Source: Escherichia phage 933W
Sequence record: AF125520
DNA: 61,670 nt
Strand: one strand, 5' to 3'
Positions 57,001-60,000 of this stretch are shown here, in pieces; within the stretch, counting starts at the first letter, position 1, and the number at the start of each line of letters is the position of its first letter. The position numbers were made by a program.

Positions 57001-60000
57001 TGACTATATCTCCGGAGGGACAGGGCGCTTCATTTCCAAAACCACGGATGCGGCGGTGAAATCGCTGAATGGTATTGATATACCGGAACAGCAGGTGCCC
57101 TTCCTGGGGAAAATTTCGGGGGAGGTGATGCCGTATGCAGACCAGCAGAAGATGTACGACCGGATGACAGAGATTGCGCAGTATCACGCAGAGCTGAAGA
57201 GTCTGACCGGTGCAGAAAGAACGGCGTTCATTGACGAGAACAACGGAAAATTGTCGATGAACGGGCTTATGCAGGATACCCGGAAGAGACTGAAGGATTT
57301 GCGTAAACAGCGTGATGCCATTTACGCCGACAGTACTCTCAGTCTGGCGCAACAGTCGGCGATGGTGAAATCGGTAGAGCGGGATATGAAAATTGCCGTG
57401 GATCGGTTTAACCGCGAGTACAACAAAAAAGTGGGAGTGGATTAACAGAAATGGCCCCGTACGGAAGTGCGGGGCTGATTAAGAAATAAACACTCATTGA
57501 CCTGTAATAACCGGAGCTATTAACATATAGTCAGAAGAGCATTTCATGTGATACAGAGAGCCGATTTATGTTTAATGAAGAAAAAGTTGCGCAAATGGCA
57601 GCGTATTTGCTGAAAAAGCATGGCGGATCTATGCGTTTCATTAAGCTGAAGCAGCAACGGTAATGGCGAATAGCATTTATGAGCAAAATAATCTTGATAT
57701 GTTATTAGGCGATCTGATGTAACCGGGATGATGTTCACCCCTTATCGCCGGGGAACAATACCGGCAATCAGAATTGCGGATGGAACTATTCAGGCCCACG
57801 ATGATATCGATGAGGAGTTTTTTCAGCCAGTATTGGATGGCTTTCTTATATCCAAATATACGCCATTTGACATCCTCCACGCCCTGAAGGACGGGGTTTT
57901 ACAGCGCACCGGATAAGATTCGGTGTTTTGTTGAAAAATACTGTGATAACAAACAGAAAACCCGTCAGTAAGACGGGCTTAGCAAGCTGGGACGGTTACT
58001 TTAATAATTTCAGTGCCTTTACATCCACTTCAACACTGCTCAGGTCTTTATCAATTTCACCCTCAATTCTTACTTTGTCTTTCGGAGAAACATTCTGACC
58101 GGCCCATATGCTGTCATCGATATCCGTGACAATTGTCCCGCTATTGTCACGAAACTCATAACGTTCATCACCCACTTTTTTAACGATGCTCCCTTCAAGG
58201 ATAACCCATGCATCATCCTTCAGTTCTTTTGCCTGCGCTACTGTTGAACGCTCTGCTTCAGGCCCTTGGAAACCGCCCTGCTGTGCAAAAGCGCCAAAAG
58301 ACACACCAGAAATAAGTGCTGCAATCAATACCTTTTTCATTCATAGTCCTCTTTCAGAGATGAACATTCAAACAGCATTTTCAGTATGGTAAAGCGCGGG
58401 TGCGTTGAGGATGCCTGACACATCAGAGGTGGCGGGAGATTACTCCCCCGCTTGGTCTCTTACTTCTCAGATTCGTAGTCTACGAAGACAGCGACCTCCG
58501 TCTGACCGGTTCGGATTCGCACCTCGCAGAGGTCTTTCCTCGTTACCAGTGCCGTCACTATGACGGTTAAACAGATGACGATCAGGGCGATTAACATCGC
58601 CTTTTGCTGCTTCATAGCCTGCTTCTCCTTGCCTTTCGGCACGTAAGAGGCTAACCTACATGTGTTCAGCATGGATTGAGCCTCAGATTAATGTTAAGCG
58701 TCTTGCCGGACGCGTAATGTTAACTGGGGCTTTTCTCTATCTGCCGTTGGTGTTCATGCCCGAGGCAGATAGCCTCAAGCACCCGCAGCAATTCTACTTA
58801 ACTCTCCTTTTCCCGCAAACCGTTTTTATCTCCAGCGACAAATCGAATACACAACCAGCACCACCGCCATTACTGTTCCTACATTTGCGAATGCTTCAGG
58901 CCAGGTCATTGATTCACCTTCTGCTCAATATTTTTAAGGTCATTTTCCGCATACAGTATTGCAGTTCTTGCTGCCCGCAACCGTGCTTTGGTGTTCTTTT
59001 CTTCACGCTCGAGGCTGGCAACAGATTCTCGGAGCTGATCGTGTCTGTTATGAAGCTGTCTAATCTCTCTCACCACAGCCTCACCATCGTTCGCACACCG
59101 CAGAACATACTGAAAAGGGTCCACAACACATCCGCACTGCAAGCACAGGATAACGTGATCCTGTTCATGAACCTCAATGGCCCGATGCTTACAGCTCTGT
59201 TGTGTGTAGTTTTTTCTGCCAGTTACTGTAATGTTCAGCAGCTTCTCTTCATCGCGCTTTGGCTGCACCAGTGTGATGATATTATCGCCTTCATTTTCCA
59301 TCAGTTCACCTCCTGCGGCGGTTCTGGTAGCGGCATCCAGTGTGACGGTTTCCACGACGCACCAGGAATTATCCACCCATCATTAGCGTCAGGATGCCCC
59401 GGGATGTAAGTCGCCCACTTCATTCGCCAGTCACCTTTCCTGTCAAACTCCACGGCAACAAGAACGGCTGTTTTGGTATCCGGCATTCGCTCACTACAAC
59501 TTATCCAACCATCCGGAGTTACCGGAGAGTTGCCAGACAGCGCATTCTGCAACCGTTCCAGCTTAACGTATTCCTGAACCCTGTTTCCGTCGCACGCCTG
59601 AAGCCATTGCTCAGCCTTTTGCGCATCAGTGTGAAAGGCACAAGTGCGACCGTCATCAAATTGCATTTCGTAGAGGTTAGCAATCTGTTCAAACTGCGTG
59701 TGTGGCAACTTGTAAGTTTGGCTTACGAGTTCGGCTTCCAGTTCTGCTATGCGCTTCTCTGATGCTTCAAGTAACGCCTGCTTATCGCGTAGCGCTTCTT
59801 CCAGTTCAGCAACATGGCATTCACTATCAATAAGGTTGTTCTGTGCTGCTCCCAGCTCCACTCTCAGCTTCCCAACCGTAAGCGCAATCTCCTCGTTCTC
59901 CTGGTCGCGGCGTTTGATGTATTGCTGGTTTCTTTCCTGTTCATCCAGCAGTGCCAGCACGGTAGCCGGGTTAGCCTCTGCTATGAATTCAGCGTTTGCA

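What the first reader, a model, noticed from the sequence alone, without database searches (positions are those of the whole stretch)
58460..58615. Hok/Gef-type type I toxin in the b-region
The 51-aa product is a close Hok/Gef-family match (TM helix, KDLCEVRIRTGQTEVAVF) with a strong RBS. Type I toxins are normally controlled by an overlapping antisense RNA, which should be encoded on the plus strand near 58600-58680. It may stabilize the prophage or contribute to abortive infection.
Basis: partly seen in the sequence, partly recalled or inferred. Interest (0 to 1): 0.55.

Follow-up and report, generated by a model that had tools for sequence, protein, structure and literature searches.

The report
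Known hokW-sokW toxin-antitoxin of Stx phage

Summary
The ORF at 58460-58615 (-) encodes a 51-aa Hok/Gef peptide (Pfam PF01848, 81 bits). Its 5' leader matches Rfam RF01794 end to end (113.5 bits).

The 521-bp locus is 100% identical to phage VT2-Sakai (Sp5) and many other Stx phages. The window's last 21.7 kb is 100% identical to the EDL933 Stx phage.

This locus is hokW-sokW, characterised by Takada et al. 2021 (PMC8621323). They showed that HokW is toxic and sits in the inner membrane, and that the sokW RNA neutralises it. Prophage induction removes sokW and lets HokW be made, and deleting the locus halves phage release. Their locus-specific primer sequences all map exactly onto the window.

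My analysis finds the full Hok-family set of features:
- an overlapping mokW frame (58460-58672);
- a sokW promoter at 58629-58657 (+) and a 71-nt sokW RNA at 58664-58734 (+);
- a long-range 5'-3' fold-back pairing, supported by compensatory changes in relatives.

The suggested roles (prophage stabilisation, abortive infection) are untested; the published role is help with lysis. Verdict: already known, low interest.

The parts
58460..58615 (-). hokW coding sequence (51 aa plus stop), a Hok/Gef membrane toxin
   Evidence: ORF list; Pfam PF01848 at 81.1 bits; PHROG 251 at 112.9 bits. The cloning primers YO-357 and YO-369 of PMC8621323 map exactly to its two ends.
58460..58672 (-). mokW reading frame (70 aa). 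It starts 57 nt upstream of hokW, is in frame with it, and has its own GAGG Shine-Dalgarno 8 nt before the ATG.
   Evidence: ORF list. The ATG and GAGG are kept in 17 of 19 relatives. The frame is fused to hok in 12 of them, and in 4 it is in the +1 frame but still open for 55-68 codons.
58395..58784 (-). hokW mRNA, about 390 nt. The 5' end is inferred from the start of the Rfam model and the conserved GGGUGCUUGAGG. The 3' end is approximate, just past the fold-back element.
   Evidence: Rfam RF01794 covers 58784..58610 over model positions 1-157 of 157. The 400-nt fold has z = -7.4. On 19 relatives 85.9% of cells are paired, against about 41% for slid controls.
58773..58784 (-). 5'-terminal element GGGUGCUUGAGG, which pairs with the 3' fold-back element in the full-length mRNA. 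In a 3'-shortened mRNA it folds into a local hairpin instead.
   Evidence: helix 1.
58398..58410 (-). fbi (fold-back inhibition) element CCUCAACGCACCC in the 3' UTR
   Evidence: It pairs with the 5' end in the minimum-free-energy fold. The helix has 12 pairs, 93.4% of cells paired, and 4 pairs with compensatory changes, e.g. U-A to C-G in five Photorhabdus/Pantoea loci.
58791..58819 (-). Inferred hokW promoter: -35 TTTGCG (58814-58819), 17-nt spacer, -10 TAGAAT (58791-58796), 6 nt before the inferred +1 at 58784
   Evidence: Read from the sequence. Inference only: the generic promoter scan did not call it.
58629..58657 (+). sokW promoter: -35 TTGCCT (58629-58634), 17-nt spacer, -10 TAACCT (58652-58657). 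It overlaps the hokW Shine-Dalgarno region on the other strand.
   Evidence: Primer YO-421 of PMC8621323 changes TAACCTA to GAGCCGG in the 'pro-less' mutant, which loses the antitoxin effect. TTG(A)CC and TAAyCT are conserved in relatives from five other named genera.
58664..58734 (+). sokW antisense RNA, 71 nt. It has a 5' single-stranded tail GUUCAGCAU complementary to the mok start codon, then a long hairpin and a U-rich tail. It covers the mok ATG (58670-58672) and SD (58681-58684).
   Evidence: The fold gives -31.4 kcal/mol, z = -5.2. The coordinates fit the 71-nt complementarity stated in the paper, and the northern probe YO-592 maps to 58664-58693. The exact ends are inferred.

Best explanation
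This is the hokW-sokW type I toxin-antitoxin module of 933W/Sp5-type Shiga-toxin phages.

A weak promoter near 58791-58819 (-) makes a stable mRNA of about 390 nt. In the full-length form its 5' end is locked to a 3' fold-back element, which keeps it translationally silent (inferred from the fold and covariation, and from the R1 hok paradigm).

HokW translation depends on the overlapping mokW frame (inferred by family analogy). The 71-nt sokW RNA is made from the opposite strand at 58664-58734. It pairs with the mok start region, blocks translation, and partly relies on RNase III and Hfq (published).

In a lysogen both RNAs are present and no toxin is made. On RecA-dependent prophage induction sokW disappears. 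HokW is then made about 1 h before the endolysin, inserts into the inner membrane, and hastens growth arrest and lysis. Deleting the locus roughly halves the released phage (published for an identical sequence).
For: Identity:
- Pfam HOK_GEF scores 81 bits.
- Rfam RF01794 covers the leader at full length, 113.5 bits.
- PHROG 251 scores 113 bits.

Same locus as the published one:
- The 521 bp are 100% identical to VT2-Sakai, Stx2 converting phage I and others.
- All 16 locus-specific primer or probe parts that I mapped from PMC8621323 match the window exactly. The only string that does not match is the full YO-421 primer, which carries the deliberate promoter mutation.

Published experiments:
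- arabinose-induced toxicity;
- rescue by sokW in cis and in trans;
- loss of rescue with the -10 mutant;
- northern detection of both RNAs;
- loss of sokW after mitomycin C;
- RecA-dependent HokW-3FLAG located in the inner membrane;
- delayed growth arrest and half the phage yield in the deletion mutant.

Anatomy found here:
- sokW folds with z = -5.2.
- The mRNA fold-back has z = -7.4.
- The fbi helix and leader hairpins show compensatory changes.
- mok is conserved.
- The sok promoter is conserved.
Against: - The RNA ends are inferred, not mapped here.
- The generic promoter and terminator scan calls nothing in the locus, because the sokW -10 matches only 3 of 6 positions.
- mok-hok translational coupling and activation by 3' processing have not been tested for hokW. 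The authors say the smaller RNAs they saw are uncharacterised.
- RNase III and Hfq are only partly required.
- The experiments were done in K-12 lysogens of Sp5, not in 933W or a native O157 host. Native hosts carry 4-6 sok-like copies, which could buffer the system.
- The effect on phage yield is only about two-fold.
Confidence: 0.93

Rival explanations
1. The locus works as a post-segregational killing or addiction module that stabilises the prophage. Cells that lose the prophage keep the stable hokW mRNA but lose the short-lived sokW, and so die, as with hok/sok on plasmid R1.
For: All the structural elements of the R1-type system are present: a stable folded mRNA with fold-back inhibition, mok, and an antisense RNA with its own promoter. 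The mechanism would follow from family knowledge.
Against: No curing or stability experiment exists for hokW. Deletion had no growth phenotype without induction. Native O157 hosts carry 4-6 closely related sok copies, which could neutralise HokW after prophage loss. The only measured phenotype is on lysis and phage release.
Confidence: 0.2
2. The locus is an abortive-infection defence. A superinfecting lytic phage shuts off host transcription, sokW decays, and HokW kills the cell before the invader finishes, as reported for R1 hok/sok against T4.
For: There is a family precedent, cited in the paper. The gene sits in an accessory (moron) region of a prophage, among non-essential genes.
Against: This has not been tested for hokW. 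The R1 effect needed a high-copy plasmid and was modest. The measured role favours the carrier phage's own release rather than exclusion of other phages.
Confidence: 0.15
3. The locus is an inactive relic, like most chromosomal hok loci of E. coli K-12. Some phage records even name the gene 'RelF inactive antibacterial toxin protein'.
For: The annotation in the PA-series phage records. Several relatives fetched here are visibly decayed, with a mutated 5' end, a replaced leader or 3' end, or truncation. K-12 hokD matches only the 3' 242 nt of the query, positions 232-473.
Against: Every regulatory element is intact in the window. Toxicity, antitoxin activity and induction-dependent HokW synthesis were shown for the identical sequence.
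Confidence: 0.02

Closest known systems
hokW-sokW of Sakai prophage 5 (phage VT2-Sakai), Takada et al. 2021, Toxins 13:796 (PMC8621323)
   Same: The nucleotide sequence is identical over the whole 521-bp locus. Every locus-specific primer and probe part of the paper that I mapped matches exactly. The neighbours are the same: ygiW downstream, the Ea22-like gene upstream.
   Different: Nothing in the locus differs. The carrier here is the 933W/EDL933-type Stx2 phage rather than Sp5 itself.
hokD (relF) of the Qin prophage and related prophage hok loci in E. coli and Shigella
   Same: The peptide is 92% identical (L005, L008) and the DNA 91-94% identical. In the complete copies the leader, mok and sok promoter are the same.
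   Different: The K-12 hokD copy matches only the 3' 242 nt of the query (positions 232-473), so it lacks the leader, the mok start and sok. The C-terminal residues differ (VDYESEK versus TAYEPEE).
hokC (gef)/mokC/sokC chromosomal locus
   Same: The peptide is 78-80% identical (L014-L022). mok is in frame with hok, and the 5' end and fold-back pairing are the same.
   Different: The hokC-type leader lacks the 18-nt insert that lengthens the leader/Sok hairpin in hokW (alignment columns 72-89). The sok -10 reads ACTCT rather than TAACCT.
hok/mok/sok of plasmid R1 (parB), the founding member
   Same: The architecture and regulatory logic are the same: a toxin of about 50 aa, an overlapping mok, a cis-antisense Sok over the mok start region, a 5'-3' fold-back, and RNase III involvement.
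   Different: The peptide is only 44% identical. From my memory of the R1 sequence, mok is out of frame with hok in R1 but in frame here. The carrier is a plasmid, and the shown role is post-segregational killing rather than phage release.

Membership tests
hok/sok type I toxin-antitoxin family | Hydrophobic toxin of about 50 aa matching the Hok/Gef profile | tested here: met
   Pfam PF01848 scores 81.1 bits against a cut-off of 22, over the full profile. PHROG 251 scores 112.9 bits.
hok/sok type I toxin-antitoxin family | Overlapping upstream mok reading frame with its own Shine-Dalgarno | tested here: met
   The 70-aa ORF at 58460-58672 has GAGG 8 nt before its ATG. It is kept in 17 of 19 relatives, and stays open across hok even where it is out of frame.
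hok/sok type I toxin-antitoxin family | Short cis-antisense RNA with its own promoter, covering the mok translation start, with a 5' single-stranded tail and a terminator-like hairpin | tested here: met
   Promoter at 58629-58657 and RNA at 58664-58734, z = -5.2. The promoter is conserved. The published northern blot and -10 mutant map onto these coordinates.
hok/sok type I toxin-antitoxin family | mRNA leader homologous to the family's curated RNA model | tested here: met
   Rfam RF01794 scores 113.5 bits against a gathering score of 59, over model positions 1-157 of 157. The model lies on the hok-sense strand, so it identifies the leader rather than the strand of Sok.
hok/sok type I toxin-antitoxin family | Long-range 5'-3' fold-back (fbi) pairing of the full-length mRNA | tested here: met
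   The pairing is present in the minimum-free-energy fold, z = -7.4. The helix has 12 pairs, 93.4% of cells paired, and 4 pairs with compensatory changes across 19 loci.
hok/sok type I toxin-antitoxin family | Toxin kills or arrests cells, and the antisense RNA neutralises it | not testable with these tools
   Shown experimentally for the identical sequence in PMC8621323; sequence identity confirmed.
hok/sok type I toxin-antitoxin family | Activation by slow 3' processing of the mRNA, and mok-hok translational coupling | not testable with these tools
   A 3'-shortened mRNA is predicted to refold its 5' end into a local hairpin. The authors state that the truncated RNAs are uncharacterised.
NCBIfam 'type I toxin-antitoxin system Hok family toxin' (NF007279) and HokA (NF007290) | Score at or above the curated cut-off | tested here: not met
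   The scores are 53.6 against a cut-off of 73, and 38.8 against 89. These models cover other Hok subgroups. RefSeq names the protein 'Hok/Gef family protein'.
Abortive-infection or post-segregational killing module (functional class) | Protects against superinfecting phage, or kills cells that lose the element | not testable with these tools
   No experiment on hokW addresses either role. The published phenotype is on the carrier phage's own lysis and release.

The most novel reading that the evidence does not exclude
The trigger that removes sokW on induction, which the 2021 paper leaves open, could be excision itself. In the prophage, hokW sits at the far end from int. After circularisation, transcription from pL (taken to be antiterminated, as in lambda) through int and attP would run into the co-directional b-region block (antirepressor, TraR-like, Ea22-like, hokW; all on the - strand). 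That transcription is convergent with sokW and carries sokW's complementary target. It could therefore silence or titrate sokW, a toxin-antitoxin counterpart of lambda's excision-dependent sib retroregulation.
Probability: 0.15. Interest if true: 0.4.

Novelty: already known. Interest (0 to 1): 0.08.

Why it matters
The finding adds little: the locus is named, annotated in several phage records and experimentally characterised. Three points are still of use. Its exact parts can now be placed in window coordinates, including the sokW RNA, which RefSeq does not annotate. The locus is a complete, undecayed member of the family. How prophage induction removes sokW remains an open question that can be tested.

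Tried and rejected
- **Promoter and terminator scan.** The generic sigma-70 promoter and intrinsic-terminator scan over 58200-59000 found nothing. I rejected this as evidence of absence. The experimentally mutated sokW -10 (TAACCT) matches only 3 of 6 consensus positions, and the Sok hairpin is long and imperfect.
- **933W record.** Fetching the 933W record by accession AF125520 failed because it is not in the collection. I established the source instead by 100% identity to the EDL933-Stx phage.
- **LexA box.** I tested whether the RecA dependence could come from a LexA box at the b-region (antirepressor) promoter. No CTGT-N8-ACAG match with up to one mismatch lies near 61300-61400, so I rejected the idea.
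- **Terminators upstream of hokW.** I looked for strong terminators between attP and hokW on the - strand. Only one weak candidate turned up, inside an ORF at 59132-59148.
- **NCBIfam.** The Hok models scored below their curated cut-offs. I treated this as a limit of those subgroup models, not as evidence against membership.
- **Inactive relic.** I considered this reading, prompted by the 'RelF inactive' annotation in some records, and rejected it on the intact anatomy and the published toxicity.

Full report
**Observation**

The - strand ORF at 58460..58615 encodes MKQQKAMLIALIVICLTVIVTALVTRKDLCEVRIRTGQTEVAVFVDYESEK.
- It matches Pfam HOK_GEF over the whole profile (81.1 bits against a cut-off of 22).
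- It matches PHROG 251 'MokW-like host killing' (112.9 bits).
- An AAGGAG Shine-Dalgarno lies 9 nt before the ATG.

**Where the window comes from**

Window 40000-61670 is 100% identical to the EDL933 Stx phage and to Stx2 converting phage I.

The window runs in prophage order:
- int lies at 29-1363 (-) and xis at 1392-1691 (-) at the left end (the gene names come from collinearity with the annotated record).
- At the right end a co-directional - strand block holds the antirepressor (60466-61095), a TraR/DksA-like zinc finger (60197-60418), an Ea22-like gene (59301-60200), a 156-aa ORF, a 27-aa ORF, hokW, and a ygiW/BOF gene (57996-58340).
- Beyond ygiW lie the oppositely oriented tail genes.

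'b-region' is therefore a fair description.

**Already known**

The 521 bp around the ORF are 100% identical to phage VT2-Sakai (Sp5) and at least 99% identical in 42 phage records. Some of those records label the gene 'MokW protein', 'gef homolog' or 'host killer protein'.

A full-text search found Takada et al. 2021 (PMC8621323), a paper devoted to this locus as hokW-sokW. I mapped 16 locus-specific primer or probe parts from that paper onto the window, and all 16 match exactly. The only string that does not match is the full mutagenic primer, which carries the deliberate change.

The paper shows the following:
- HokW arrests growth when induced from pBAD.
- sokW, expressed from its own promoter, prevents this. 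A -10 mutant loses the protection, and sokW supplied in trans partly restores it.
- RNase III and Hfq contribute partly.
- Both RNAs are seen on northern blots in the lysogen.
- Mitomycin C makes sokW disappear while hokW mRNA persists.
- HokW-3FLAG then appears, dependent on RecA and about 1 h before the endolysin, and fractionates with the inner membrane.
- Deleting the locus delays growth arrest by about 40 min and halves the released phage.

**Anatomy in window coordinates**

*sokW promoter and RNA.* The mutagenic primer YO-421 replaces TAACCTA (58652-58658, + strand) with GAGCCGG, which fixes the sokW -10 at TAACCT, 58652-58657. A -35 TTGCCT lies 17 nt upstream at 58629-58634.

With +1 at about 58664, the 71 nt stated in the paper end in the U-run at 58734. 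The sokW northern probe maps to 58664-58693.

This RNA folds into a 9-nt single-stranded 5' tail, a long hairpin and a U-rich tail (-31.4 kcal/mol, z = -5.2). It covers the start codon (58670-58672) and the GAGG (58681-58684) of a 70-aa frame, mokW (58460-58672). That frame is in frame with hokW.

*Rfam hit.* Rfam RF01794 ('sok') hits 58784..58610 on the - strand over its whole length (113.5 bits). Its consensus ends at the hok AUG. The model therefore represents the hok mRNA leader, and it supports 58784 (GGGUGCUUGAGG) as the mRNA 5' end.

*hokW promoter.* A TAGAAT -10 (58791-58796) and a TTTGCG -35 (58814-58819) precede that 5' end. This promoter is inferred only.

*mRNA fold.* Folding 58784..58385 pairs the 5' 12 nt with CCUCAACGCACCC at 58398-58410. 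This is the fold-back inhibition element of the family (z = -7.4). A 3'-shortened RNA instead folds its 5' end into a local hairpin.

**Comparative support**

I fetched 47 related loci and aligned 19 with complete leaders, from Escherichia, Shigella, Kluyvera, Photorhabdus, Pantoea and Citrobacter.

Counting the hokW fold on that alignment:
- 85.9% of cells are paired, against about 41% for slid controls.
- 30 pairs have changes on both sides, against 19 ± 2 in shuffles.
- The fold-back helix is 93.4% paired, and 4 of its 12 pairs show compensatory change. For example, GGGUGC/GCACCC becomes GGGCGC/GCGCCC in the five Photorhabdus and Pantoea loci.

One caveat: the structure was derived from the first sequence of the alignment, which favours it on the 'cells paired' measure.

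The mok ATG with its GAGG is kept in 17 of 19 loci. It is fused in frame in 12. In 4 it is in the +1 frame yet still open for 55-68 codons. This argues for selection on translation through the region rather than on a Mok protein.

The sok -35 and -10 are conserved as TTG(A)CC and TAAyCT.

**Mechanism**

Shown (published): toxicity, inner-membrane location, antisense neutralisation, loss of sokW on induction, and help with the phage's own release.

Inferred from the anatomy and the R1 paradigm: silencing of the full-length mRNA by the fold-back, coupling of hok translation to mok, and activation by 3' trimming.

**Rivals**
- Prophage addiction and abortive infection are compatible with the anatomy but untested.
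- The 'inactive relic' reading suggested by some annotations is contradicted by the intact elements and by the published toxicity.

**Open point**

The paper does not know what removes sokW on induction.

The geometry suggests one candidate. Only after excision does transcription through int and attP join the b-region block, which runs in the hokW sense direction and so converges on sokW. No strong terminator was found in between, and no LexA box lies at the block's own promoter-like site at 61314-61343.

Against this idea, strong pBAD-driven sense transcription did not defeat sokW on a plasmid. I give it a low probability.

**Verdict**

The locus is already described in the literature, so interest is low.

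Noticed in passing
window 58826-58909 (-): A 27-aa hydrophobic ORF (MTWPEAFANVGTVMAVVLVVYSICRWR) sits just upstream of the hokW promoter. Its ATG overlaps the stop codon of the preceding 156-aa ORF (ATGA). It has no Pfam, NCBIfam or PHROG match. It could be a second small membrane peptide.
   Followed up: partly
window 58610-58784 (-): The Rfam family RF01794, named 'sok antitoxin', matches the hok-mRNA sense strand and its consensus ends at the hok AUG. A hit therefore marks the hok leader, not the strand that encodes Sok.
   Followed up: yes
window 58625-58740 (+) and E. coli RefSeq genomes: No feature is annotated over the sokW region in the listed best-matching complete E. coli genomes, all 100% identical. 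The listed O157-type genomes carry 4-6 sok-like copies (up to 8 in the collection). Cross-neutralisation between prophage hok/sok loci is therefore possible.
   Followed up: partly
L006, L014, L026, L037, L039 (related loci): Several relatives look decayed. L006 has a mutated mRNA 5' end, L026 and L039 have unrelated leaders, L014 has a replaced 3' fold-back region, and L037 has a truncated hok. They contrast with the intact phage copy.
   Followed up: partly
window 61136-61224 (-) and 61314-61343 (-): An Rfam sRNA-Xcc1 match (69 bits) lies in the leader of the antirepressor gene. It is preceded by a promoter-like TTGACA-18-CATACT. This may be a regulatory leader for the b-region block.
   Followed up: no
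window about 61480-61560: A direct tandem repeat of about 33 bp (ACAACCACATTTTGCCCCAATAGTGCCCCAAAC, two copies) lies close to the att end of the phage. It may hold recombinase or accessory-protein binding sites.
   Followed up: no
window 22777-23036, 21120-21368, 7899-7957: Rfam also finds STnc100 (207.7 bits) abutting AsxR on the opposite strand, three tRNA genes, and the lambda cIII thermoregulator. All fit an Stx2 lambdoid phage.
   Followed up: no
whole window: Matches to CTGT-N8-ACAG with up to one mismatch number 49, against 20 ± 4 expected from dinucleotide-preserving shuffles. None lies at an obvious promoter near hokW. The excess may reflect codon or trinucleotide bias rather than LexA sites.
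   Followed up: no
window 57996-58340 (-): A YgiW/YdeI-type OB-fold stress-tolerance gene with an N-terminal hydrophobic, signal-like start lies directly downstream of hokW, 55 nt past the fold-back element. It could be co-transcribed by read-through of the hokW mRNA.
   Followed up: no
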